Positions 1 to 47,610 of a DNA stretch of 56,283 nucleotides are shown here, piece by piece (the stretch's first letter is position 1; each line of letters begins with the position of its first letter). The stretch lies in UHGV virus genome UHGV-0315882. The stretch is one strand, 5' to 3'. A program made the position numbers and the translations under genes. The notes under the pieces were generated by a model. It ran no database searches. It saw nothing but the letters and a program-made list of their open reading frames with translations, and was not told the DNA's origin. This DNA is from a virus.

Positions 1-15
1 GTTAATAATAGCCAT

Positions 16-116
16 TTTCAGAATCTCCAGTTTAGGACTTTATTTAGTGGGGAAGGTCATTCCCTCCCCGTTGATGTGTAATTTAGCCTATCTAAAAACC
101 AGTGTCAACAAAATTT
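16..116 (-). promoter_or_regulatory. Early-gene cassette type 1: sigma70-like promoter, GC hairpin, RBS
   Basis: Minus strand reads TTGACA (104-109), ~18 bp spacer, TAAATT (80-85), imperfect inverted repeat GGGGAAGG/CCCTCCCC (49-69), GGAGA RBS, then an ATG at 15-13 whose ORF runs off the window. Near-identical copy at 1064-1155. Confidence 0.5.
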
Positions 117-521
117 TTAGAGTTCTGCATAAATTGCATCGCAGATATTACGAAAATCATGACTTGCCAAATTACGTTGCAACCAAGTGGCAAAGAAATC
201 AGCGATTGCAAAATTTGCGTCATACTCGACAGATAACCACACTTTAACAGCAAATCGGAACATTTTCAAATCTAACTCTTTATTCATTACCTTAGATTTG
301 CCTAACATGTCGGCCATTTCATGTTGTGCACCGTCTAGCGTGATACCTGCTGCAACGTCAGTCAATGAGTTTTTTACGCTTTCAACGTCTAAGATAACAC
401 TTTGAATCTTCCCAATAATGTTTTGCAGTGTTTCATCTGGTGCTGATGACGTGATAACATTAATCCGGTTAACGGTCAAACGTGCTTTTAAGATAGATAA
501 CTCACGATTATTAATAGCCAT
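117..521 (-). CDS. hypothetical early protein (134 aa)
   Basis: ORF with GGAGA RBS ~7 nt upstream of ATG, directly downstream of cassette 522-612; no recognisable motif. Confidence 0.55.
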   Translation of the reverse strand: MAINNRELSILKARLTVNRINVITSSAPDETLQNIIGKIQSVILDVESVKNSLTDVAAGITLDGAQHEMADMLGKSKVMNKELDLKMFRFAVKVWLSVEYDANFAIADFFATWLQRNLASHDFRNICDAIYAEL

Positions 522-612
522 TTTTGAATCTCCAATTTAGGATTTAGTGGTAAAGCTCTTTATCTGGGGCTTACTGTACAGACTTATAAGCCCCTTGTAA
601 AGTACTTTATGC
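522..612 (-). promoter_or_regulatory. Early-gene cassette type 2: TTTACA, GGGGCTTA/TAAGCCCC inverted repeat bracketing a TANNNT hexamer, RBS
   Basis: Conserved flanks shared with copies at 1775-1866, 2380-2464, 2759-2847 and 3229-3318; stem 566-573/587-594; minus-strand TTTACA, 17 bp, TACAGT. Confidence 0.5.
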
Positions 613-921
613 TAAATGCAGCTTTTTGCCTTTTACTATGATGTAACTTGATGCGCTATTGCCGCATACATCTTGATAAATTCTACGCAAACGGCCTTTG
701 TAGTATACTTTCCAACTGGTTGGAATCTTTTTCCCGTATCCTGTAGCAGTTTTTTGGAGTCCTGCAACTTGCCAATCCAAAATGTGCTGTTCAGCCCGTA
801 AATCTTCAAAGCACATCACACCGTCTACATAGTGGCGTAGGGTTACGTTTAAGGTGCGACCGTTGTTAGTAGTGTACATTTTTGAATCTCCTAGTTTAAG
901 GACTTTATTTTGACAGTTCAC
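607..921 (-). CDS. hypothetical protein (104 aa)
   Basis: ORF preceded by a degenerate cassette remnant with GGAGA RBS; stop codon embedded in the conserved cassette flank. Confidence 0.5.
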   Translation of the reverse strand: MNCQNKVLKLGDSKMYTTNNGRTLNVTLRHYVDGVMCFEDLRAEQHILDWQVAGLQKTATGYGKKIPTSWKVYYKGRLRRIYQDVCGNSASSYIIVKGKKLHLA

Positions 922-1063
922 TAATTAAGACATCAAAGATTATATCATTATCTGCTACAGTTGCAACACCAGTGATATAATCAATTTCTAAGATAACAAC
1001 AACTTTCGTACATAAACCGTCATCTATATCATTCCAGATAACTTTATCACCTGCACAAAACAT
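905..1063 (-). CDS. small hypothetical protein (52 aa, below the ORF-track threshold)
   Basis: Hand translation MFCAGDKVIWNDIDDGLCTKVVVILEIDYITGVATVADNDIIFDVLISELSK; ATG immediately downstream of a full cassette (1064-1155) with GGAGA RBS. Confidence 0.3.
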   Translation of the reverse strand: MFCAGDKVIWNDIDDGLCTKVVVILEIDYITGVATVADNDIIFDVLISELSK

Positions 1064-1155
1064 TTTAGAATCTCCAGTTTAGGACTTTATTTAGTGGGGA
1101 AGGTCATTCCCTCCCCGTTGATGTGTAATTTAGCCTATCTAAAAATCAGTGTCAA
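1064..1155 (-). promoter_or_regulatory. Early-gene cassette type 1 (second copy)
   Basis: Near-identical to 16-116: TTGACA, hairpin 1096-1116, GGAGA RBS. Confidence 0.5.
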
Positions 1156-1484
1156 TAGTTCTGTTTTCGTTTGCTCAATTCTTGAACAATTACAGCGTAG
1201 TAGTCTTTTAAGTCACTGACATTTAAAGCATTTATCAGAGAATTATAATCATCAACTAACTGGAAATCATCTTTGAAGATGTCACTTATCTGATAGGTTT
1301 TCGCTTTGTATCTGAAGCTCATCTCTAGCCGCTTTATTTGCTCATCGCTTAAACGCTCTAGAAAGCTCATTACAAGGTTATTGCTAACCTGCTGCGTGAT
1401 TGCCTTACTTGCCAGATTATAGGCTTTATATGCCTTATAAAGTGCTATAATGGCTATGATTGCAGTAATGCCAGTTATTAACAT
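1152..1484 (-). CDS. hypothetical membrane protein (110 aa)
   Basis: Strongly hydrophobic N-terminus (LITGITAIIAIIALY); start overlaps the stop of the upstream ORF. Confidence 0.5.
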   Translation of the reverse strand: MLITGITAIIAIIALYKAYKAYNLASKAITQQVSNNLVMSFLERLSDEQIKRLEMSFRYKAKTYQISDIFKDDFQLVDDYNSLINALNVSDLKDYYAVIVQELSKRKQNY

Positions 1485-1774
1485 GGTGTTTCCTCTTTAC
1501 GTGATACCTTGCCACTTACAGATATCTCATAAGACTCTAATAAATCACTTTTAGACTTTACAGGACTTTTAAAAGTATCATCATAAATATTTACTTGCAA
1601 TACAGGTTTTTTATACTCCCTGCAACTATTCCATAAACAAATCACTACACGACGGCCTTTTATTTTGCCGTGTAACCATTCCATAACATCATGACTATTC
1701 CTTGATGTTTCAATGAAATCAATTTTGTTGAGTAATTTGCTCAGATTCTCACGAACATGATTTGATAATTTCAT
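1478..1774 (-). CDS. hypothetical protein (98 aa)
   Basis: ORF with GGAGA RBS, directly downstream of cassette 1775-1866. Confidence 0.5.
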   Translation of the reverse strand: MKLSNHVRENLSKLLNKIDFIETSRNSHDVMEWLHGKIKGRRVVICLWNSCREYKKPVLQVNIYDDTFKSPVKSKSDLLESYEISVSGKVSRKEETPC

Positions 1775-1866
1775 TTTAGAATCTCCTAGTTTAAGGGATT
1801 TATTTGATAAATCTCTTTATCTGGGGCTATCATATCCGCTTGTTAGCCCCGTGTAAAGAAATCTAT
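1775..1866 (-). promoter_or_regulatory. Early-gene cassette type 2 variant
   Basis: Stem GGGGCTA/TAGCCCC (1823-1829/1844-1850); minus-strand TTTACA, 17 bp, TATGAT; GGAGA RBS. Confidence 0.5.
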
Positions 1867-2379
1867 TTAGTTCTTAAAGATATTCATCACTGAATCTTTT
1901 AATGCTTCCAAGCGTTCTGATACTTCAGATTCTGCGTCTGCGTTGTTCACCTCTTCTTTTAGTCTATCCTCTAAATCATCGCCGTCACGATAGCACCAAT
2001 CGAAAGCATAACCAAGATAAAAACTCTCTAAAACCGTGCTACCGTTTGCATCCACAACTTTCGCGGCAAGGTTGTATTCTGAAGCCTCTAAATCTCTTTC
2101 TAGTTCTTTCTGTAAGCTGGTGTAAGCCTCTTTTGATGGGTTTTCCCGGCCTTGTTTTGCATAGTCACTTGAAAGCTGTTTAAGGCTGTAATGTAAAGGG
2201 ATTGCATATTTAAAATCATTACGCTGACAGTTGGGGTTTTTAATAGTCACGCCGCCTTGATGGTCATCTGTAAATTCCCAATTATCAAGATTATGGCTTG
2301 CTTCAAAGCAATTAACTGCTTCGTAAATGATGGAAAATTTTTCTTTTACAACTTCAAAGGTAGCGTCTACAGTTTTCAT
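1867..2379 (-). CDS. hypothetical acidic protein (170 aa)
   Basis: ORF with cassette-borne RBS; no recognisable motif. Confidence 0.55.
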   Translation of the reverse strand: MKTVDATFEVVKEKFSIIYEAVNCFEASHNLDNWEFTDDHQGGVTIKNPNCQRNDFKYAIPLHYSLKQLSSDYAKQGRENPSKEAYTSLQKELERDLEASEYNLAAKVVDANGSTVLESFYLGYAFDWCYRDGDDLEDRLKEEVNNADAESEVSERLEALKDSVMNIFKN

Positions 2380-2464
2380 TTTTGAATCTCCAGTTTAGGA
2401 TTTAGTGGTAAAGCTCTTTATCTGGGGCTTAAGATATCAACTTTTAAGCCCCTTGTAAAGTACT
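2380..2464 (-). promoter_or_regulatory. Early-gene cassette type 2
   Basis: Stem GGGGCTTAA/TTAAGCCCC (2424-2432/2444-2452); TTTACA, 17 bp, TATCTT; GGAGA RBS. Confidence 0.5.
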
Positions 2465-2758
2465 TTATTTGTTAATTTTCAGCTTTGCATAACTTCTCAT
2501 TGTACGAATGGTGGATGTTAATGCTACGCGTCTAATGTATGCCTTTTTCGTGTATACAGTTGTCTTCCCGATAGTGTTTACACATGTAAAAAGGTTTATC
2601 GGTGAATTTTTTAACTTCAACTGTTTATCAGCCTTCACGCCCCACCTTACAGCAGATTGTTTTCCGTTGTCAACCACTTTTCCGCATAACTTTTTAGCCA
2701 TAACGCGAGCGTCATCACGAGTTTTTGCAGCAATTACAACGTTTTTGATAATAGCCAT
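2465..2758 (-). CDS. hypothetical basic protein (97 aa)
   Basis: ORF after cassette 2759-2847; N-terminus MAII resembles that of ORF 117-521 (MAIN). Confidence 0.5.
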   Translation of the reverse strand: MAIIKNVVIAAKTRDDARVMAKKLCGKVVDNGKQSAVRWGVKADKQLKLKNSPINLFTCVNTIGKTTVYTKKAYIRRVALTSTIRTMRSYAKLKINK

Positions 2759-2847
2759 TTTTTAGTTCTCCAATTTAGGATTTAGTGGTAAAGCTCTTTA
2801 TCTGGGGCTTACTTTATCGAACTATAAGCCCCTTGTAAAGTACTTTA
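2759..2847 (-). promoter_or_regulatory. Early-gene cassette type 2
   Basis: Stem 2804-2811/2825-2832; loop identical to the copy at 3229-3318. Confidence 0.5.
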
Positions 2848-3228
2848 TCAGTTAATTTTGAAAATTGTCACATATCCGTCACTGCCGATTATTTGAGATA
2901 CTCCAGCTTTTTCCACTGAATAGCCCATATTTTCAAGATGATAAACAGCATCATCATAACCATATGCGCCACCCTGATAACGTCTCTTATCGCATCTTAT
3001 CAGGTTTTTACCACGTCCTGCAAGTGCATTCAGTACAGCTTTTTCACTTGATAGCATACCATCTAACATGGTTGCCGTGTAATGGTTGATTCTATTCCCA
3101 TTTACATCATACTTAAAATTGAATGCGTGAACAACGATAATGTTACCTTTAAAATTTTCATCAAGTGACTTCTCCAGTGCGTTGCGAAAGTTGTCTTTGT
3201 TGATGAATTTAGGTGCACGATATGCCAT
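2848..3228 (-). CDS. hypothetical protein (126 aa)
   Basis: ORF with cassette-borne RBS. Confidence 0.55.
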   Translation of the reverse strand: MAYRAPKFINKDNFRNALEKSLDENFKGNIIVVHAFNFKYDVNGNRINHYTATMLDGMLSSEKAVLNALAGRGKNLIRCDKRRYQGGAYGYDDAVYHLENMGYSVEKAGVSQIIGSDGYVTIFKIN

Positions 3229-3318
3229 TTTTGAATCTCCTAGTTTAAGGGTTATTTAGTAAAGCTCTTTATCTGGGGCTTACTTTATCGAACTATAAGC
3301 CCCTTGTAAAGTACTTTA
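3229..3318 (-). promoter_or_regulatory. Early-gene cassette type 2
   Basis: Stem 3275-3282/3296-3303; loop identical to the copy at 2759-2847. Confidence 0.5.
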
Positions 3319-3525
3319 TTAGATATCGTAGTAATAAACTGCTGTCTGTCTTATGTGCTTTCTTGTATTTCTTGTAAGGTAGCAATTAGAATTAATAGCC
3401 GTTTCTACATAGTTGCAGTAGTCAGCTTCTGATATTCTGGACCATGCGCCACATACTTGCATGTAAAAACGTTTTACCTTTGTGTTAACGTTAGTTGTAA
3501 CCATCAATTCACGACTATAAAGCAT
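3319..3525 (-). CDS. hypothetical protein (68 aa)
   Basis: ORF with GGAGA RBS after cassette 3526-3606. Confidence 0.45.
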   Translation of the reverse strand: MLYSRELMVTTNVNTKVKRFYMQVCGAWSRISEADYCNYVETAINSNCYLTRNTRKHIRQTAVYYYDI

Positions 3526-3606
3526 TTTCGATTCTCCAGTTTAGGAAGTGGGCTTGCTTGCCCGTCTGATGCAAATATTAGATAACCATACTCAAAGAGT
3601 CAATAG
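3526..3606 (-). promoter_or_regulatory. Early-gene cassette variant (TTGACT, 17 bp, TAATAT, short GGGC/GCCC hairpin, RBS)
   Basis: Same architecture as type 1 with a different, weaker hairpin (3550-3563). Confidence 0.4.
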
Positions 3607-3780
3607 GAATTTTAAAAATATTTTTGGCAAAAATGTAATGAAACGGGTGCGCGCGACTACCACAAAACAGAACTACAATCAAGAATTATTTTTCAATCCG
3701 CTACAAATTTTTCTGTTGACTTTTATTTCCAGATGTGGTAGCCTTGTGAGAAATGGCGACATCCCCACCTGCACCCACCT

Positions 3781-3963
3781 ACCTGCACAATTCTAAAATG
3801 ATTTTTCTTGCCCGACCTGATTTTTCTCTGCACGTTTTGAAAATGAAAAAGCTCTTTGGAGATTACCTGCACAGTTTGAAAATGAATTTTCTCTTTGGAG
3901 TTCAAAATTTTCTCTACAGATTTCTCTATAGAAATATACCTGCACAATTCTGAAATGAAAAAG
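3781..3963. repeat. Four direct copies of a ~22-26 bp motif in noncoding DNA
   Basis: Copies at 3781-3802, 3827-3851, 3865-3886, 3938-3963 (ACCTGCACA[A/G]TT[C/T]T[A/G]AAATGA); CTCTTTGGAG also occurs twice. Confidence 0.6.
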
Positions 3964-4031
3964 CCCTCCTTACCTGAAAAATTTACCAGATAAGAAAGGC
4001 TTAGTCTATTGTGAATATCCTACGAAGTTTC

Positions 4032-4817
4032 TTAGTTCTTTGCGTCTAAGAAGGTAAGCTCTGGTGAAGAGAAAACCGTCTCGATATCCTCATCAGTTCT
4101 TGCATAGATGTAAGCATCTGCATCACTGCCAAATGTTACTGCAATCCTGTGATTGCTCTTCGACAGGTGGGTAACTAGAGCGTTACTTAGAGACATCTTT
4201 TCAACCGGAGGGTTACTTTGATGTATCTTGCCTTTTCTTCGTCTGAAGAGGGTAACTACATCATTAGTGAACACTACTACACCAGCAAAGTATTCTGGTT
4301 CACAGTAGTTCTTCCAACCTGAGCGTAACTTGTGGTACATCTCTCCTTCATAGACATACAGATACACATCTACACTCTTCATCACCTGATTAATGATGAC
4401 TGTGACGGCTTGAGAGTCTAGTCCACCGATACCTGCACCAATCATAGGTAACCCAACTTTCTTCAACTGATTGACTTCACAGTATCTGTTAAGTTGTTTC
4501 AAAGATGATTCTAAAGCACTGTATCGGGCATCTTTACCAGTCTTAAGCTGAGTGTAAAGGTTAGCTATACGGCCTTGTTCTAAACGTGCTACAGAGAAAT
4601 TGCCTAGTAAATTTTCACAGGGTTTGTGACCTATGCCACCTGCATACAGATAAACTTCTGTATCGGTCTCATATGCTTTTGGGTAAAGTTTAGAAATCTT
4701 GTCAGCGATACCTGCACCCATTAAGTTCATACAGTTGCAACCGTGACCAATGATATCAAACTTACCTTTATCAAATGCGGAGAAGATATCCCCATTGATG
4801 ATTTTTACAATACCCAT
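4032..4817 (-). CDS. TARG1/OARD1-like macrodomain protein with unknown C-terminal domain (261 aa)
   Basis: N-terminal ~150 aa carry GDIF...HGCNCMNLMGAGIA...LPMIGAGIGGLD, matching TARG1-type macrodomain hallmarks recalled from memory; GGGAGAGA RBS. Confidence 0.6.
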   Translation of the reverse strand: MGIVKIINGDIFSAFDKGKFDIIGHGCNCMNLMGAGIADKISKLYPKAYETDTEVYLYAGGIGHKPCENLLGNFSVARLEQGRIANLYTQLKTGKDARYSALESSLKQLNRYCEVNQLKKVGLPMIGAGIGGLDSQAVTVIINQVMKSVDVYLYVYEGEMYHKLRSGWKNYCEPEYFAGVVVFTNDVVTLFRRRKGKIHQSNPPVEKMSLSNALVTHLSKSNHRIAVTFGSDADAYIYARTDEDIETVFSSPELTFLDAKN

Positions 4818-5018
4818 TTAGCATCTCTCCCAAGATTCTTTATCTTCTGAAGGTTTTACACGTTGTCCTTCGTGGTCTACCCAGATACATCCACAACCTT
4901 CACAGATTACTGGCATTGCATAGCCAGCTTTAAAGTCATCTTCAGTGATAAGACCTTTTAAGTCACCTGTATCACGTCCGAACATTTCGATAGCACAGTC
5001 TTTGCAGAAGTCAGCCAT
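4818..5018 (-). CDS. small Cys-rich protein, putative zinc-binding (66 aa)
   Basis: CKDC...CEGCGC; start placed at the internal ATG (MADF) with AGAGG RBS because the track start is a GTG. Confidence 0.4.
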   Translation of the reverse strand: MADFCKDCAIEMFGRDTGDLKGLITEDDFKAGYAMPVICEGCGCIWVDHEGQRVKPSEDKESWERC

Positions 5019-5244
5019 GAATAATTGCCTCTTGAATGATGATGCCTTTACCACAACGACTTTTAAAATCTTCTAATGGTTCAGAGAAGAAGTCACGGAA
5101 ATGGTTACTGCACTCACGTTTTATCACCTTCTTGTAAGTTAACACATCTTCTTCTGCAAACGGGATGACTTCATGTCTCCCTTTGAATACTGCTGAACGT
5201 ACAATCTTGCGGGTCTTTTTATCTCTGGCTAGTATTACTTTCAT
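5011..5244 (-). CDS. hypothetical protein (77 aa)
   Basis: ORF in tight same-strand array. Confidence 0.45.
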   Translation of the reverse strand: MKVILARDKKTRKIVRSAVFKGRHEVIPFAEEDVLTYKKVIKRECSNHFRDFFSEPLEDFKSRCGKGIIIQEAIIHG

Positions 5245-5551
5245 AGTTTACCTTCTCAGTTAGCTCATACAAGTCAACATGCTCAATGCTATCAATGTTG
5301 ATACCAATCTTTTTGAAGCGTTCTATCACTTCGTTGTCAGTCATCCATATCAGACACCAATGATTATGGATGGATTCTTCAAGAAGGTCAACACAGTCTT
5401 TAAAAGTTTTTGTATCACTTCTTGTTCCGACTACTGCGATTGTCCCATACAACCACTTACCATTGCCATAAGATACTTGTGCTACGCCAACTTCTTTATC
5501 TTTCTCGTAGTAAACGGCTACAAAGTCTCTTCCATTAATCTGCATAGTCAC
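5219..5551 (-). CDS. hypothetical protein (110 aa)
   Basis: ORF in tight same-strand array. Confidence 0.5.
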   Translation of the reverse strand: MTMQINGRDFVAVYYEKDKEVGVAQVSYGNGKWLYGTIAVVGTRSDTKTFKDCVDLLEESIHNHWCLIWMTDNEVIERFKKIGINIDSIEHVDLYELTEKVNYESNTSQR

Positions 5552-5817
5552 TTCCTCGTTTTAAGAACTGCTAAGATTTCTTTAGAGTCTGGTAAGAACC
5601 ATGTGTAGTGATTCTCTTTGATTTCTGGATGAGTGTCAACCTTTATTTTGCACTCTTTACCAACATGCTTAAGCTGTGCTGTGACACCTTGCATAAAGAT
5701 ATGACACATCACGTTATCCATAATGGTTGGTGAGAAATCAACCCGCATATAAGTTTCTTTTGGTCGTGGTAGCAGTAAATACCCTTCTACATAGAAAGTA
5801 TCTTCATTCTCTGTCAT
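5548..5817 (-). CDS. hypothetical protein (89 aa)
   Basis: ATGA start/stop overlap with the upstream gene. Confidence 0.5.
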   Translation of the reverse strand: MTENEDTFYVEGYLLLPRPKETYMRVDFSPTIMDNVMCHIFMQGVTAQLKHVGKECKIKVDTHPEIKENHYTWFLPDSKEILAVLKTRK

Positions 5818-6083
5818 TGCTGTTTGTTTCCTAATAAAATCATATCAATAAGGTTATTAGCTTTGATTGTGCACTGGTAAAAACCATCACGATAAAACTC
5901 AAGGGCTGCTGCCACATCACTACCAGTATTACCTTTGACAGTGAATCTTGACTCTTCTTGAGTGTACTTGTCACTCTCACTTACTTGGGAGTTTTTGAAT
6001 GTACTGTTCACTTTGTTCGTTGAACACCCTGACATAATTATCAGTAACACAAACATTATAAAACTCTGGCTTAGTCTTTTCAT
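5814..6083 (-). CDS. putative outer-membrane lipoprotein, o-spanin-like (89 aa)
   Basis: Signal peptide with lipobox-like IMSGC; start lies within the 3' end of the upstream membrane/coiled-coil gene, as in overlapping Rz/Rz1 pairs. Confidence 0.45.
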   Translation of the reverse strand: MKRLSQSFIMFVLLIIMSGCSTNKVNSTFKNSQVSESDKYTQEESRFTVKGNTGSDVAAALEFYRDGFYQCTIKANNLIDMILLGNKQQ

Positions 6084-6324
6084 ATGTTATTACCTCTTTT
6101 GTGTGCTTATTCTTAGCAAGCACATCTTTCAAATCATTTTTGTAATTGGTGCTGAGTGTGGCTAAACCTTCCTGATAAGCATCTTTGGCAACACTTATTA
6201 GTTTCTCATTATTTAGCTCAGCTTCAGCAACTTGGTAGTCTCTGTAAGAGTATCCTCCCCAGACACCTGCTCCAACTAAGAAAACAATTATGAAAGTAGC
6301 TTGGCAGAACTCTTTAAATGTCAT
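5977..6324 (-). CDS. putative i-spanin-like protein (115 aa)
   Basis: N-terminal transmembrane helix followed by a charged, helical periplasmic region; overlaps the lipoprotein gene. Confidence 0.45.
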   Translation of the reverse strand: MTFKEFCQATFIIVFLVGAGVWGGYSYRDYQVAEAELNNEKLISVAKDAYQEGLATLSTNYKNDLKDVLAKNKHTKEVITYEKTKPEFYNVCVTDNYVRVFNEQSEQYIQKLPSK

Positions 6325-6340
6325 TTAACAATCTCCTGAA

Positions 6341-6366
6341 ATGAAAAAGGCTCCCGAAGGAGCCTG
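6341..6366 (-). terminator. Intrinsic terminator
   Basis: GGCTCC-cgaa-GGAGCC stem-loop followed by a T-run on the minus strand. Confidence 0.6.
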
Positions 6367-6376
6367 TATCTTAACC

Positions 6377-6841
6377 TTAACTGAGGACTTTAGCAAGGAT
6401 ATTCGCAGCCATCGAAGAAGCTTTTGCAGCAGCAACTACGCCAGCTTTGACAGTGCCATCCTTAATAGCAGATACCGTTGCAGCATCAGTAAAGAGGTAA
6501 GTGATTGTTTTAGAACCACTTGTAAAGGAAAGCATAAGAGTAGTTTCCAGATTGAAAGAGCGATACGGAGCACCTTCTTTAACGATACCTTCAGCACCTA
6601 ACTCTGAAGCCTTACCCATATCATAAATAGTCATCAGGTTTTCTTTGTGTGCAGTCGTTGAACCAGCACCTTTTACGTGCTTTTTAACATTCAACAATGC
6701 ACGATATTCACGAATGCTGCCATCAGCTTTTACATTAACAGCACGAAAAATTTTACCTTCAAAGTTACCTTGAATCAATTTACGAACTACTACAGATTTG
6801 TTTGTCGTATCGTCCAGTGCTACCGTAATGATATTGTTCAT
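6377..6841 (-). CDS. hypothetical protein (154 aa)
   Basis: ORF with its own downstream terminator; Ala/Gly/Thr-rich. Confidence 0.55.
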   Translation of the reverse strand: MNNIITVALDDTTNKSVVVRKLIQGNFEGKIFRAVNVKADGSIREYRALLNVKKHVKGAGSTTAHKENLMTIYDMGKASELGAEGIVKEGAPYRSFNLETTLMLSFTSGSKTITYLFTDAATVSAIKDGTVKAGVVAAAKASSMAANILAKVLS

Positions 6842-43859: not shown

Positions 43860-46391
43860 TTAAGCAGTTCTTACCCAAGCCATTAACTTGTAGAACTGGT
43901 TAGTAACACTAAATGCTGAACCAGAACCTGTGCCACCAGTATTACCACTAACTGTATGAGTGTGAGCACCAATAGCTATTGCGTGAGCATGTCCCCCACC
44001 GAGGTCAGTAGAACCACTTACAGAGTGTGTGTGAGCACCATCACCTTCCGTCCACCCAACATGTGTTTGAGCAGAGTTTGATGAAGCTACACGACCATTT
44101 GGTACGTTAGCGTTATCACCTTGTGAGATTCTATGTGCGTGGTATCCAGCAGAGTTAGTAGAACCACTTACAGCGTGTGAGTGAGCACCATTGACAACAG
44201 TTTCTTTTACACCATAATCAAAAGATGAAGTGGTAGCAGAGAAACTATGGGTGTGTGACGGTAAGTTACCAACAGATAACACCACAGAGTCTGAACCACC
44301 TGTTGTAGCAACATCTGAACCATCTGCTGCTGCAATCCTGATAGTCCTACCAACACCATTGTTAAGGTACGTCCAAGTTAACCCAGGAAGTGCTGTATTA
44401 GGGTCAACATTACTGTTAAACCACGTTACAATACCTACTGGATAGATTTTGTTAAGGTCTGTAGAGTCACTGATTGCTGTTGCAATCTTCTGGTCAGTCT
44501 CAGCTTTAGTGTATGCACCAATATCTGAAGGGGTTGGCTTCAAAATACTCGTGTAATAGTGAGCAATTGTCCCAGCAACATAGCCAGATGGAGAGCTGTC
44601 AGAGGTCTCTGGTGTCTCAAACAACTGGACTGTTGCATTATCTGATGCCTGAACCCTAGCTGTCGTAGCGTTTTGATAGCCACCAACATTGCAATAAATA
44701 TCATAATTATCACCAGACGTATTAACATAACCAATTTGGTCTACAACACCATTTGGTGAGTTTTTCCATGCAACAACATTTAACCCTTTTGGATTACCAT
44801 TCCCTGTTCTGAGAACAATCTCTGTCTTACAGGCTTGGTCTGTAGCACCATAGTTGAAACCAGACCCACCAAATAGCTCAATTACGGCTGTTGCTGTCCC
44901 TTGTGGCATGGTGACTGTAGCAATCTTAGCCCATTTACCACCAGCATTCTGGTTAAAGCCAGTACTTCTTACTCTCAGGTATCTATTATCGGCAGAAGTT
45001 TTATTATAATACCTGTCGTCAATGTTACTCCAATCAGAAGGTTTAACTTGACCATTGATTCTAACAGTTTTATTTAGAAAAAAGTCATCTTGCATAAAAA
45101 GAGTGGTCCCAGTTTTATCATTGTGGATAATGAGTTTAGATGGGTTTTCTCTCTCGCCATTCCCGATGAACCACCTTCTCACATTATCAGCGTTATAACC
45201 AGCAAAGTATAGTGCATTATCCTGAACAGTGTTTCTTAGCTGTAACGATAGGTCATCTTGGGTAATAACTTGTGTAGACCTGAAAATGTTCATGTTACTG
45301 AGTTTAGCAAGATTACTCAAAGTTCCTGCCGGAATGTATCTAGAATCAATGTTACTCCAATCAGAAGGTTTAACTTGACCATTGATTCTAACAGTTTTGC
45401 TCATGGCAATAGTGTTACCTAGTGAGACTTGTGTTTTTGTTAGATAGTTATAGATTTTTAAAATGTTCTCATCACCGTCATTACCAATGTACCACTTATA
45501 ATTCCCATCTGACTTTCTTGCTCGGATATATAAAGAGGGAGCAGTGTCCACATTTTGCAGAGTGATGGCTTCAGCATTCTTCTTAGCAACAAAATTAGAG
45601 AAAGTGTTAGTACCAGTAAAAGTGTTATTACCAGCTAACTGCGCAAATCTCTGATTAGCTGCTGTCTGGGTAAAATACCTAGCATCTAAGTTAGCAAAAC
45701 TTGAAGGCTGAACTTGGCCAGCAATTTGAAGAGTTCTGTTGACTGTCACCAAATTCTCTAAAATAGCAATTGAAACGTCAGACTTTACATTCTTCAATAC
45801 AAGATTATTTGTACCCCTATTATCATTACCTAGATACCATCTGTTAGTACCATCTGCATCTTGACCACGAAGATAGAGTGGAGCACCTTGAGTGATATTT
45901 TTGATAATGAGTGCTTCATTGTCAGAGAGGATAGCTTGAGTACCTCTAAAGGTGTTATTTACAGCAAGTCTTGCATATCTTGCATCATTCTCTTTATTAG
46001 TTCTCATACCAAGCTCATTAGGACTTGGCTTATTCAGAGTATGATAAACGGTTGCCGACCTTGAAGCATCTGCAATAGTCAGTTTAAGGCCATTTGCGTT
46101 AATTTTAAAAGTCTTTAAAACATCCCCAATATTAATCTCAGAAGAGCCTGTTGGGTTAAATACTACCTTACCACCATAAAGTAACTTAACAATCCCTAAG
46201 TCACCTGTCATAGTGCTACCAGCAATCTGAACAAATCTCTCAAGTTTAAAAGATGCTAAGAAGTCTTGATAGGTCATTCGACGGTCTTCATCACCTAGCA
46301 TTTCAGGTCTCTTTTTAACCCTGACATGAAGAAGGTCATCTGAACGGATTGTATCGATTGAGTTTAATTCACTCAACTTGTAATCTGCCAT
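43860..46391 (-). CDS. Tail fiber protein with His-rich C-terminal tip (843 aa)
   Basis: C-terminal HxH repeats (HTHSF, AHSHAV, HAHRI, AHTHSV, HAHAI, AHTHTV) as in metal-binding fiber tips; internal ~50 bp DNA repeat (45021-45071 and 45346-45397). Confidence 0.75.
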   Translation of the reverse strand: MADYKLSELNSIDTIRSDDLLHVRVKKRPEMLGDEDRRMTYQDFLASFKLERFVQIAGSTMTGDLGIVKLLYGGKVVFNPTGSSEINIGDVLKTFKINANGLKLTIADASRSATVYHTLNKPSPNELGMRTNKENDARYARLAVNNTFRGTQAILSDNEALIIKNITQGAPLYLRGQDADGTNRWYLGNDNRGTNNLVLKNVKSDVSIAILENLVTVNRTLQIAGQVQPSSFANLDARYFTQTAANQRFAQLAGNNTFTGTNTFSNFVAKKNAEAITLQNVDTAPSLYIRARKSDGNYKWYIGNDGDENILKIYNYLTKTQVSLGNTIAMSKTVRINGQVKPSDWSNIDSRYIPAGTLSNLAKLSNMNIFRSTQVITQDDLSLQLRNTVQDNALYFAGYNADNVRRWFIGNGERENPSKLIIHNDKTGTTLFMQDDFFLNKTVRINGQVKPSDWSNIDDRYYNKTSADNRYLRVRSTGFNQNAGGKWAKIATVTMPQGTATAVIELFGGSGFNYGATDQACKTEIVLRTGNGNPKGLNVVAWKNSPNGVVDQIGYVNTSGDNYDIYCNVGGYQNATTARVQASDNATVQLFETPETSDSSPSGYVAGTIAHYYTSILKPTPSDIGAYTKAETDQKIATAISDSTDLNKIYPVGIVTWFNSNVDPNTALPGLTWTYLNNGVGRTIRIAAADGSDVATTGGSDSVVLSVGNLPSHTHSFSATTSSFDYGVKETVVNGAHSHAVSGSTNSAGYHAHRISQGDNANVPNGRVASSNSAQTHVGWTEGDGAHTHSVSGSTDLGGGHAHAIAIGAHTHTVSGNTGGTGSGSAFSVTNQFYKLMAWVRTA

Positions 46392-46437
46392 TATAAATTT
46401 TCCTCTTAAAAGGGGCTATCAAGCCCCTGTAAAGAAA

Positions 46438-47610
46438 TTAAGCTGTTCTCTGCCATACATACAGTACAAAGGATGGCTGCTCAATATTAACCGCCTGACC
46501 TCCACCAACACTATTCGTATTGCCACTATGTGTATGTTCAGAAGAAGAAACTGTCACAGTACCACTGTGTGTATGTGAACCAATACCAACTGTGTGGCTG
46601 TGAGCACCAATACCAACTGTGTGGCTGTGGTCACCAGATGCACCAGATGTAACGCTAAAACTGTGTGAGTGTGCACCGTCACTAGATGTCCTTGATGTTC
46701 TCCATGCACCACCACCATCAGAGTCAGCTACAGCATTACCAGTACCATCATTTTCTCTAGGGTACACATCATGGTTGTGAGTACCATTTGTACTTGTGTT
46801 ACCTGATACGTTGTGTGTATGGTTACCAGTTGTATTGGTATCTTTTGTTCCATAGTCAAAAGAGTTGGTAGTCTTAGTCCCATAGTCAAAAGCTGAAATT
46901 GACACAGTTGCATTATGGGTGTGACCGCCACCACTAAGAGACACAGAGTGTGAGTGTTGAGGCATGTTATTAACTGACAAAGTGACAGTTGAAGCACCAA
47001 ATACAGAGCCTGCTGGTCTTGTATCAGAGTCATAACCAACCAATGCCCTACCTTTTGAAACTAACTCCCAAGTACCTCCACAAATTAAATATGTAGAAGG
47101 GTTTGCAGAGTTCATGGAAAGATGGATAGTACCTACTGGATAAGAAGCCTGAACAGCCTTGTACAAGTTATTTACTGCTCTTGCTGTAGCATACTTATCT
47201 GCATCTTCGTTATAAAGGTTAGATGTTGTCCAGTTCTGAACATTACTTAGACCAACCTGTGCCTTAGTTGTATTGTGTGGGTTGCTCTTGTCCTGAATAT
47301 GCTGTTGAACAAGATTATTAACCTCTTCTGAAGACATAATCTGTAGATTTGCTCTTGCCTGAGCTACATTAGTAACATCTGATAAGTTATTTGCAGCAAC
47401 TAACTGAAGAGCATTAATAACATTATCTAAACCAATTTGTGTTTTAGTAACACCATGAGGGTTATTTCTTAGGCTTGAGTGTGGAGCAAGTAATTGCTCA
47501 AGAGTACATCTCTTATCTTCAATACCCTGCTTAAGATGGAAGATATCACTAAGGCCAATTGGTAAGGCTGCTTGAGGCAAGGCACTAATTTGAATTTCAC
47601 CTACTGCCAT
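46438..47610 (-). CDS. Tail fiber protein, paralogous His-rich tip (390 aa)
   Basis: C-terminal HSHSVS, GHTHNA, NHTHNV, THNHDV, AHSHSF, DHSHTV, AHSHTV, SHTHSG, EHTHSG repeats; C-terminus WQRTA parallels the 843 aa fiber (WVRTA). Confidence 0.7.
   Translation of the reverse strand: MAVGEIQISALPQAALPIGLSDIFHLKQGIEDKRCTLEQLLAPHSSLRNNPHGVTKTQIGLDNVINALQLVAANNLSDVTNVAQARANLQIMSSEEVNNLVQQHIQDKSNPHNTTKAQVGLSNVQNWTTSNLYNEDADKYATARAVNNLYKAVQASYPVGTIHLSMNSANPSTYLICGGTWELVSKGRALVGYDSDTRPAGSVFGASTVTLSVNNMPQHSHSVSLSGGGHTHNATVSISAFDYGTKTTNSFDYGTKDTNTTGNHTHNVSGNTSTNGTHNHDVYPRENDGTGNAVADSDGGGAWRTSRTSSDGAHSHSFSVTSGASGDHSHTVGIGAHSHTVGIGSHTHSGTVTVSSSEHTHSGNTNSVGGGQAVNIEQPSFVLYVWQRTA

What the first reader, a model, noticed from the sequence alone, without database searches (positions are those of the whole stretch)
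2759..3318. Two cassette copies with identical loop sequence flanking one gene
The cassettes at 2759-2847 and 3229-3318 share not only the conserved flanks but an identical variable loop (CTTTATCGAACTA), unlike the other copies. They bracket ORF 2848-3228 as direct repeats ~470 bp apart. This is the signature expected of a recent cassette-mediated insertion or duplication, and such a pair could excise the gene by homologous recombination.
Basis: seen in the sequence. Interest (0 to 1): 0.4.

Follow-up and report, generated by a model that had tools for sequence, protein, structure and literature searches.

The report
Promoter–hairpin repeats bracketing a dispensable phage gene
Two nearly identical promoter-plus-hairpin spacers flank a small early gene of a Felix O1-like phage; related phages have lost that gene, leaving one spacer, as already described for T4-like phages.

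Summary
The window is a Felixounavirus (Felix O1-like phage) with its early genes on the minus strand. The two "cassettes" are the complete intergenic spacers on either side of a 126-aa ORF (g8, 2848-3228). They share an exact 60-nt run, including the 13-nt loop. This is the longest identity among the five such spacers in the window.

Each spacer carries three elements:
- a sigma-70-type promoter, TTTACA-N17-TAnnnT, whose -10 box lies in the "variable loop";
- a conserved ~59-nt extended hairpin;
- a Shine-Dalgarno/ATG leader.

This matches, feature for feature at the sequence level, the PeSL (promoter-early stem-loop) cassettes of T4-like phages.

Phages ASO1A, ASO1B, JLBYU32 and tootiki carry g9-[one cassette with the same loop]-g7 with g8 gone. 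Their crossover points differ and they sit apart on the gene trees, so the losses were probably independent homologous events. Neighbouring genes g6, g7 and g9 are also lost at cassette boundaries.

The "recent insertion" idea is not supported. g8 is ancestral and stays in the same position across Ounavirinae. The identical-loop pair is shared with JLBYU28 and LinBro.

This is a new member of a known kind and of moderate interest.

The parts
3229..3318 (-). Cassette g9>g8: the whole intergenic spacer upstream of g8. -35 TTTACA at 3310-3305; -10 TAAAGT at 3287-3282, inside the loop; inner stem GGGGCTTA/TAAGCCCC at 3275-3303; extended hairpin at about 3260-3318; Shine-Dalgarno GGAG at 3240-3237.
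   Evidence: promoter scan; fold -24.1 kcal/mol, z -3.8.
2848..3228 (-). g8: a 126-aa early ORF of unknown function (PHROG 4495). This is the gene bracketed by the repeat and lost in some relatives.
   Evidence: No Pfam, NCBIfam or PDB match.
2759..2847 (-). Cassette g8>g7: the whole intergenic spacer downstream of g8 and upstream of g7. -35 TTTACA at 2839-2834; -10 TAAAGT at 2816-2811; inner stem at 2804-2832; extended hairpin at about 2789-2847; Shine-Dalgarno GGAG at 2771-2768.
   Evidence: (fold -25.3 kcal/mol, z -4.2).
3259..3318 (-). Upstream copy of the exact 60-nt repeat, TAAAGTACTTTACAAGGGGCTTATAGTTCGATAAAGTAAGCCCCAGATAAAGAGCTTTAC.
2788..2847 (-). Downstream copy of the exact 60-nt repeat.
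3319..3525 (-). g9: a 68-aa ORF upstream of the pair. It is joined directly to g7 in the g8-less relatives.
2465..2758 (-). g7: a 97-aa ORF downstream of the pair.
2380..2464 (-). Third cassette of the same family (g7>g6). Its loop has the -10 box TATCTT preceded by TG.
1775..1866 (-). Diverged cassette (g6>g5): stem GGGGCTA/TAGCCCC, -10 TATGAT, and a 13-bp outer stem.
   Evidence: (fold -29.8 kcal/mol, z -6.2).
522..606 (-). Fifth cassette (g2>g1), -10 TACAGT.

Best explanation
The two cassettes belong to a family of intergenic regulatory units that punctuate the early, minus-strand gene array of a Felix O1-like phage. Each unit runs from the stop codon of one small ORF to the ATG of the next. 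Each holds a host-type sigma-70 promoter (TTTACA, 17 nt, TAnnnT), a ~59-nt three-segment inverted repeat wrapped around that promoter, and a conserved Shine-Dalgarno leader. The hairpin can form only in RNA that reads through from upstream, because the unit's own transcript should start inside the 3' arm. Its most likely role is therefore to attenuate, process or stabilise upstream transcripts. Because the units are near-identical direct repeats, they also act as portable homology. Recombination between the two copies flanking g8 removes g8 plus one copy (471 bp) and leaves one chimeric, still functional cassette. In this phage the pair shares an unbroken 60 nt, because the upstream copy carries the same loop allele as the downstream one. 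That makes it the best such substrate in the window. Shown here: the anatomy, its conservation, and the natural deletion products. Inferred: promoter activity, the RNA role of the hairpin, and recombination as the process behind the deletions.
For: Identity of the phage: 94% identical to Felixounavirus PHB11 and Shy over 6 kb, with all early ORFs on the minus strand. Promoter: all five cassettes score as TTTACA-17-TAnnnT. Among 103 distinct cassettes from about 37 genomes, CTTTACA is invariant. The -10 box has T1 in 103/103, A2 in 103/103 and T6 in 102/103, while positions 3-5 vary freely across 12 different hexamers. Hairpin: minimum free energy -24 to -30 kcal/mol, z -3.8 to -6.2. 97.4% of cells are paired, against at most 57.5% when partners are slid. 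Compensatory changes are GC to UA in 14 sequences, and CG to UG in 33 and to UA in 1. Erwinia phage phiEa21-4 has GGTG...CACC in place of GGGG...CCCC. G.U pairs number 146 on the sense strand and 5 on the antisense strand. Deletion products: ASO1A, ASO1B, JLBYU32 and tootiki have g9-[one cassette, same loop]-g7. Tootiki's cassette is exactly the 5' end of LinBro's upstream copy joined to the 3' end of its downstream copy. JLBYU32 keeps the g8-type leader as far as the Shine-Dalgarno site. ASO1A has a Si3-like 5' end. The g8-less phages are scattered in the g9 and g7 trees. Other module losses also end at cassettes: Felix O1 lacks g8 and g7; L021 and L025 lack g7; wV8 and LinBro lack g6. The 60-nt run is the longest among all cassette pairs in the window. 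The matching PeSL description in T4-like phages, including a single chimeric motif in the deletion variant, is in PMC2839356. In the Felixounavirus Bas63, the ~46-66 kb segment is described as uniformly non-essential, and the homologous locus is at 64.5-65.5 kb of record MZ501086. This assumes the paper and the record use the same coordinates.
Against: No transcription start, termination or recombination data exist for any Felixounavirus in the searched literature. The hairpin has no U-tract after it on either strand, so it is not a canonical intrinsic terminator; the terminator scan did not call it. Most stem positions never vary, so covariation rests on a few columns. The copies are also related by recombination, which inflates the counts. 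The g8-less genomes could in principle have arisen by mosaic exchange with another g8-less phage rather than by fresh deletion each time. Gene order is collinear in all loci examined, so nothing here shows cassette-mediated insertion at new sites.
Confidence: 0.8

Rival explanations
1. Recent insertion: g8 entered this genome recently, for example as a gene-plus-cassette circle integrating into a resident cassette and so duplicating it. The identical loops would be the scar of that event.
For: The two copies are identical over 60 nt, including non-critical loop positions. PeSL mini-circles that could reintegrate are described in T4-like phages. The g8-less and g8-containing states are interleaved on the gene trees, which re-acquisition would also explain.
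Against: g8 is in 223 records and stays between g9 (or g10) and g7 (or g6). This holds in loci L031-L035, which include SUSP2 and Michonne, at 79-83% amino-acid identity. No genome shows g8 at any other cassette. The same-loop pair is shared with JLBYU28 (96.3% identical at the locus) and LinBro, so it predates this genome. The leader next to g8 is the usual g8-type leader.
Confidence: 0.1
2. The inverted repeat is mainly a DNA operator: a dimeric phage or host regulator binds the two GGGGCTTA half-sites that straddle the -10 box and shuts off early promoters. On this reading the hairpin in RNA is incidental. The repeats would still recombine.
For: The half-sites are 21 bp apart centre to centre and bracket the -10 box, a typical repressor geometry. 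The arms are almost invariant. The PeSL authors also speculated about a GGGG...CCCC binding protein.
Against: One-sided changes are almost all G.U pairs valid only in sense-strand RNA: 146 against 5. Both arms change together within one genome (GGGGCTA/TAGCCCC) and across genera (GGTG/CACC) while the other copies keep GGGG/CCCC. One protein would not easily tolerate that. The pairing also extends through two further helices that include the -35 box.
Confidence: 0.15
3. Site-specific gene-cassette system, integron-like: the hairpins are attC-like recombination sites used by a dedicated recombinase.
For: Each small ORF is followed by an imperfect hairpin of attC-like size. Whole ORFs are present or absent as units.
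Against: The natural junctions lie at different points in the repeat: inside the 60-nt core in tootiki and at the Shine-Dalgarno/ATG region in JLBYU32. That is the pattern of homologous exchange. Each cassette carries its own promoter, unlike the promoterless cassettes of integrons (established knowledge). Gene order never permutes. The window was not screened for a recombinase gene.
Confidence: 0.03
4. The identical loops reflect selection for one particular promoter variant at both positions (convergence) and have no bearing on recombination.
For: The loop holds the -10 box, so it is under selection. Loop variants fall into a few discrete types.
Against: All 13 loop positions are identical, including the three -10 positions and the upstream spacer positions that vary freely in the family. 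The same loop type appears at different positions in different genomes, which indicates exchange.
Confidence: 0.04

Closest known systems
PeSL (promoter-early stem-loop) cassettes of T4-like phages RB49/phi1, PST/T4 and nt-1/KVP40 (Arbiol et al. 2010, PMC2839356; Comeau et al. 2014, PMC4122927)
   Same: [quoted passage not shown] Both have a sigma-70-type early promoter with a stem-loop lying between or over the -35 and -10 boxes. The stems are of the GGGG...CCCC type with G.T pairs, and a Shine-Dalgarno site plus ATG sits at the 3' end. Both cluster among small ORFs of unknown function. In both, related phages differ by whole ORFs with a single chimeric unit left behind. The -35 TTTACA even fits the T4/PST PeSL consensus TTTACW-N17-TAYWAT.
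   Different: The host phage belongs to another subfamily (Ounavirinae, ~87 kb), not a T4-like phage. Here one sequence family is conserved across four genera: 289 records and 1308 copies. The hairpin is a longer three-helix structure that also pairs the -35 box with the early transcribed region. Promoter activity, terminator activity and mini-circles have been shown only for RB49/phi1, not here. No reshuffling of gene order is seen here.
Direct repeats already annotated in Felix O1 and wV8 genomes (Whichard et al. 2010, PMC3185647; GenBank EU877232 features DR_1 to DR_9)
   Same: They are the same sequences. The Felix O1 paper lists the 57-bp repeat CTTTACATGGGGCTTAAAAGTCTGTAAAGTAAGCCCCAGATAAAGAGCTTTACCACT between genes 15/16 and 19/20. 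The wV8 record marks DR_1, DR_7 and DR_9 on the cassette downstream of g8, and DR_6 just upstream of g8 where wV8 lacks g9.
   Different: Those sources list them only as repeats. The Felix O1 paper's promoter and terminator lists do not include them. No role in gene loss was proposed in that paper or in the wV8 record.
Morons of lambdoid phages (a gene with its own promoter and terminator set between two phage genes; from my own knowledge)
   Same: A small accessory gene that is individually expressed, dispensable, and present or absent between relatives.
   Different: Morons are insertions of foreign composition at varied sites. g8 is ancestral, fixed in position, and flanked by repeated family-wide units.
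RNase III processing hairpins between early genes of phage T7 (R0.3 to R1.3; from my own knowledge)
   Same: Intercistronic hairpins of about 20 bp with internal loops, lying in early polycistronic transcripts made by host RNA polymerase.
   Different: No sequence relationship, no Rfam match and no processing data. T7 sites do not contain promoters.

Membership tests
PeSL regulatory cassette | Occupies the whole intergenic space, from an upstream stop codon in an AT-rich stretch to the Shine-Dalgarno site and ATG of the next gene | tested here: met
   Spacers 2759-2847 and 3229-3318 start at TGA/TAA followed by TAAAGTAC and end at GGAG-N8-ATG.
PeSL regulatory cassette | Sigma-70-like early promoter (-35, about 17 nt, -10) | tested here: met
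   TTTACA-17-TAAAGT at both copies. Across 103 family members TA...T of the -10 box is invariant or nearly so, and positions 3-5 are free. This is sequence evidence only.
PeSL regulatory cassette | Stable stem-loop overlapping or adjoining the promoter, typically GGGG...CCCC with G.T pairs | tested here: met
   Fold energy -24 to -30 kcal/mol, z at most -3.8. 97.4% of cells paired, with compensatory changes.
PeSL regulatory cassette | Repeated and clustered in a region of small, non-essential ORFs of unknown function | tested here: met
   Five copies, all at 522-3318 of the 56 kb. The ORFs have no Pfam hits. The corresponding Bas63 segment is described as non-essential (approximate mapping).
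PeSL regulatory cassette | Indels between related phages are bounded by the units, with one chimeric unit left in the shorter genome | tested here: met
   g8-less: ASO1A, ASO1B, JLBYU32, tootiki. g8- and g7-less: Felix O1. g7-less: L021, L025. g6-less: wV8, LinBro.
PeSL regulatory cassette | Promoter and terminator/attenuator activity shown in reporter assays | not testable with these tools
   Shown only for RB49/phi1 units. The lack of a U-tract here makes classical termination doubtful.
PeSL regulatory cassette | Formation of gene-plus-cassette mini-circles during infection | not testable with these tools
   Needs inverse PCR on infected cells or lysates (describes the assay).
PeSL regulatory cassette | Found in T4-like phages (as the family has been described so far) | tested here: not met
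   The window is a Felixounavirus. The cassette occurs only in Ounavirinae records of the phage collection. This is a matter of taxonomic range, not mechanism.
Integron attC gene cassette | Site-specific crossover at a fixed point | tested here: not met
   Junctions differ between tootiki, JLBYU32 and ASO1A.
Integron attC gene cassette | A dedicated integrase gene | not tested
   No protein-domain scan of the whole window was made.
Intrinsic (rho-independent) terminator | GC-rich hairpin followed directly by a U-tract | tested here: not met
   The hairpin is followed by CCACUAAAUCC or UAAAUAACCC. The terminator scan did not call it.

The most novel reading that the evidence does not exclude
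The cassette could be an Ounavirinae-wide dual-purpose element that arose independently of the T4-like PeSLs. On this reading it is a ~60-nt RNA hairpin built around a live sigma-70 promoter. The -35 box would be kept paired with the start of the unit's own transcript region. The RNA form would be a specific processing or stability signal, for example an RNase III site, for read-through early messages. The DNA form would serve as the standard linker through which co-infecting phages swap or shed single early genes.
Probability: 0.25. Interest if true: 0.55.

Novelty: new member of a known kind. Interest (0 to 1): 0.38.

Why it matters
It extends promoter/stem-loop "linker" cassettes, known so far only from T4-like phages, to a second and unrelated group of therapeutic and typing phages (the Felix O1 relatives). 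It also gives a concrete, repeatedly observed example of single-gene loss at such linkers.

In practical terms:
- It explains much of the presence/absence variation in the early region of Felixounavirus genomes.
- It predicts which genes are unstable in production stocks. g8 is at most risk in this phage, because of its 60-nt repeat.
- It assigns a function to repeats that two genome papers or records listed without comment.
- It offers natural sites for inserting or removing genes when engineering these phages.

It does not reveal a new mechanism.

Tried and rejected
- **Function of g8.** There were no Pfam, NCBIfam or PDB sequence hits. PHROG 4495 has unknown function. Homologues exist only in Ounavirinae, at 77% identity or more. 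The AlphaFold2 model had mean pLDDT 52, too poor for a fold search, so none was run.
- **Rfam.** Only chance-level hits below the gathering scores, for example mir-980 on the opposite strand of the hairpin.
- **Classical terminator.** Rejected, because there is no U-tract.
- **MotA-type middle promoter.** I considered reading GAGCTTTAC...TAAATT in the leader this way. I rejected it by inspection of the sequence, because the implied start site would fall at or after the Shine-Dalgarno sequence.
- **DNA cruciform.** Judged unlikely, because the central spacer is 11-13 nt (established knowledge) and the wobble pairs are strand-specific.
- **Concerted evolution within genomes.** Only a weak signal at the free position after the -35 box: agreement 0.60 against 0.485 in shuffles, reached in 13 of 5000 shuffles. 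Shared ancestry could produce it.
- **Metagenome scan for more g8-less variants.** Six further contigs, all collinear; none was g8-less, though L053 is cut at the locus.
- **Literature.** The searches found no transcription map of any Felixounavirus and no mention of PeSLs outside T4-like phages. One search failed on a term format.

Full report
**What the window is**

The first 6 kb match Felix O1-like myoviruses (genus Felixounavirus). The best hits are Escherichia phages PHB11 and vB_EcoM_Shy, at 94% identity over the full 6 kb. All plausible genes in 1-6500 lie on the minus strand as a row of small ORFs. I call them g10 (4032-4817), g9 (3319-3525), g8 (2848-3228), g7 (2465-2758), g6, g5, g4, g3, g2 and g1.

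**Checking the observation**

- The core GGGGCTT-N-AAGCCCC occurs four times in 56 kb and never in 100 shuffles. A fifth, diverged copy lies at about 1828-1857.
- The loop CTTTATCGAACTA is found exactly only at 2812-2824 and 3283-3295.
- The two copies are 471 nt apart.
- They are identical over 60 consecutive bases (2788-2847 = 3259-3318). Only the ~30 nt next to each start codon differ.
- The other nine cassette pairs in the window share exact runs of only 16-47 nt.

**Anatomy of a cassette**

Read on the coding (minus) strand, each unit is: stop codon, TAAAGTAC, TTTACA, 17 nt, TAnnnT, then AAGCCCCAGATAAAGAGCTTTAC, a ~25-nt leader, GGAG, 8 nt, ATG.

*Promoter.* The promoter scan calls all five units as -35/17/-10 matches. 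I aligned 103 distinct cassettes from about 37 related genomes. CTTTACA is invariant. The -10 hexamer has T at position 1 in 103/103, A at position 2 in 103/103 and T at position 6 in 102/103. Positions 3-5 are close to random, giving 12 different hexamers. That is the conservation pattern of a sigma-70 -10 box. The "variable loop" is therefore the -10 region plus the spacer just upstream of it.

Folding gives three helices of 6, 5 and 8-9 bp, separated by a 1x1 and a 3x3 internal loop and spanning ~59 nt. Energies are -24 to -30 kcal/mol, with z-scores of -3.8 to -6.2 against shuffles. The -35 box lies in the 5' arm and pairs with the invariant GATAAAG downstream.

On the 103-sequence alignment, 97.4% of cells pair, against at most 57.5% when partners are slid by 1-3 columns. 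Variation is limited but goes in the expected direction:
- GC to UA at one outer pair, in 14 sequences.
- CG to UG in 33 sequences and to UA in 1, at an inner pair.
- In Erwinia phage phiEa21-4, GGGG/CCCC becomes GGTG/CACC.

G.U pairs number 146 on the sense strand and 5 on the antisense strand. This favours a structure in the RNA of the coding strand over a DNA cruciform or a protein-bound palindrome. The signal rests on only three or four columns, so I treat it as suggestive.

*What follows from the layout.* A transcript started at a cassette's own promoter should begin inside the 3' arm. The full hairpin can therefore exist only in RNA that reads in from the gene upstream. No U-tract follows the hairpin, and the terminator scan does not call it. 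Its role (attenuation, processing or 3'-end protection) is inferred by analogy, not shown.

**What related genomes show**

- g8 is present in 223 phage records, against 207 for g7 and 136 for g9.
- It lies in the same g9-g8-g7 order in the divergent loci L031-L035, at 79-83% amino-acid identity. These include the contigs matching phage SUSP2 and Citrobacter phage Michonne.
- Its presence is therefore ancestral.
- Four records lack it and have g9 joined to g7 by a single cassette carrying the same loop as in the window: vB_EcoM_ASO1A, ASO1B, JLBYU32 and tootiki.

The junctions are informative:
- Tootiki's cassette equals the 5' end of phage LinBro's upstream copy fused to the 3' end of its downstream copy. 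The crossover was therefore inside the shared core.
- JLBYU32 keeps the g8-type leader as far as the Shine-Dalgarno site, so its crossover was further downstream.
- ASO1A has a different, Si3-like 5' end.

In trees of g9 and g7, the g8-less phages are scattered among g8-containing ones. The simplest reading is at least three independent homologous deletions. Mosaic exchange between phages could produce part of this pattern.

The neighbouring modules behave the same way:
- Felix O1 itself lacks both g8 and g7, with one cassette left.
- SWJM-02 lacks g8 and keeps another loop type.
- Two IMG/VR contigs, L021 and L025, lack g7.
- wV8, LinBro and others lack g6.

Gene order is never permuted in any of the loci examined, including six further metagenome contigs. 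So there is evidence for loss and for exchange in place, but none for insertion at new sites.

**Why the two loops are identical here**

Loop sequences fall into a few discrete types. The type seen here (ATAGTTCGATAAAGT on the coding strand) is the usual one downstream of g8. The copy upstream of g8 varies between genomes:
- the same type in the window, JLBYU28, LinBro and one IMG/VR contig (L018);
- a second type in PHB11, Shy and others;
- a third type in Si3;
- Tribble has the second type on both sides.

Four of the five divergent loci (L031-L035) have the second type, or a close variant, upstream of g8 and the first type downstream. The matched pair is therefore probably derived, by replacement of the upstream loop through exchange in the conserved arms. 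JLBYU28 is 96.3% identical to the window across the locus and has the same pair, so the event is older than this genome. The effect is to join two ~25-nt homology blocks into one block of 60 nt. Established knowledge of homology-length dependence suggests this should raise the deletion rate. That step is inference.

**Comparison with what is known**

The description of PeSLs (promoter-early stem-loops) in the T4-like phages RB49 and phi1 fits at every sequence-level point (PMC2839356):
- an upstream stop codon in AT-rich sequence;
- a sigma-70-like promoter;
- a stem-loop most often between the boxes or over the -10 box;
- GGGG...CCCC stems with G.T pairs;
- Shine-Dalgarno and ATG at the 3' end;
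- clustering among small unknown ORFs;
- an ORF flanked by two units in one phage and replaced by a single chimeric unit in its relative.

The T4/PST PeSL promoter consensus TTTACW-N17-TAYWAT also fits (PMC4122927). In the searched library, PeSLs are reported only for T4-like phages.

The repeats themselves have been recorded in this group. The Felix O1 genome paper lists a 57-bp direct repeat that is this cassette, without giving it a function (PMC3185647). The wV8 GenBank record marks features DR_1 to DR_9 in this early region, including the cassette downstream of g8. The cassette occurs in 289 phage records and 1308 places. The organisms and records listed are Felix O1-like phages and Erwinia phages of the phiEa21-4 type, apart from a few records with implausible host names (see Noticed in passing).

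I therefore file it as a new member of a known kind: PeSL-type cassettes in a second phage subfamily. The main difference is that the hairpin is longer and more strongly conserved than described for T4-like phages.

**The gene itself**

g8 has no recognisable domain or solved relative, and its family is confined to these phages. The structure model was too poor to use. A knockout screen of the Felixounavirus Bas63 describes the ~46-66 kb segment as uniformly non-essential. The homologous locus lies at 64.5-65.5 kb of that record, if the paper and the record share coordinates. This agrees with g8 being dispensable in the laboratory.

**Verdict**

The excision hypothesis is supported by natural deletion products. 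The recent-insertion hypothesis is not supported. The mechanism is ordinary homologous recombination between repeated regulatory spacers, as already described for T4-like phages. Interest is moderate. The useful additions are the extension of this cassette type to Ounavirinae, a functional reading of previously unexplained repeats, and the extended RNA hairpin wrapped around the promoter.

Noticed in passing
window 3780-3957 (minus strand): Four copies of CATTTT-N-R-AA-N-TGTGCAGGTA lie in the ~500-nt non-coding stretch between g10 and the promoter of g9. None occurs elsewhere in the window except one weak 3-mismatch hit. Their function is unknown; they could be regulator sites, iterons or part of a small RNA (family D10, 71).
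   Followed up: partly
window 16-108 and 1063-1155 (minus strand); also 3526-3610: A second cassette type has TTGACA-17-TAAATT followed, not overlapped, by a hairpin GGGGAGGGAATGACCTTCCCC and the same leader. The two copies are 98% identical, 1047 nt apart, and bracket g1-g3. A related unit (TTGACT-17-TAATAT plus GGGCAAGCAAGCCC) precedes g9 (family D6, 8, 9, 44).
   Followed up: partly
window 519-541, 1061-1083, 2377-2399, 3523-3545 and similar: Nearly all early genes share the same translation-start leader, CCTAAA(C/T)TGGAGATTCAAAAATG. This includes g2 at 877-910, which has no promoter of its own (families D4 and D8, 72).
   Followed up: no
L034 (IMG/VR contig matching Citrobacter phage Michonne) 3473-4154: There is a tandem duplication of the g7 homologue. 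The junction fuses a complete cassette, including its ATG, directly to a second cassette (...AAAATG|CTTTACATGGGG). This looks like the gain counterpart of the deletions, but the joint is not a simple homologous one.
   Followed up: partly
L046 (Erwinia phage phiEa21-4) 3063-3153, 4001-4089, 5462-5550, 6137-6216: The same cassette is present in a distant genus, with GGTGTTTA/TAAGCACC stems (a compensatory change) and the same TTTACA-17-TAnnnT. A second local variant, GGGGTTAT...ATAACCCC, lacks the outer helices.
   Followed up: partly
L002 (ASO1A) 3255-3443; L003 (JLBYU32) 2993-3181: The g8-less phages ASO1A and JLBYU32 carry an extra 189-nt ORF immediately upstream of g9, overlapping it at ATAATG. 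The window lacks this ORF.
   Followed up: no
phage collection records GU169904 (Staphylococcus phage SA1) and MG065664 (Campylobacter phage A132): Records named for Staphylococcus and Campylobacter phages contain Felixounavirus early-region sequence at 91-94% identity. They are probably chimeric or mislabelled.
   Followed up: no
window 43937-46892: Several families of short direct repeats lie inside long ORFs. One is an exact 53-nt repeat at 45019 and 45346. The Felix O1 paper describes comparable repeats in genes 76 and 77, and these may be their counterparts. They are unrelated to the cassettes.
   Followed up: no
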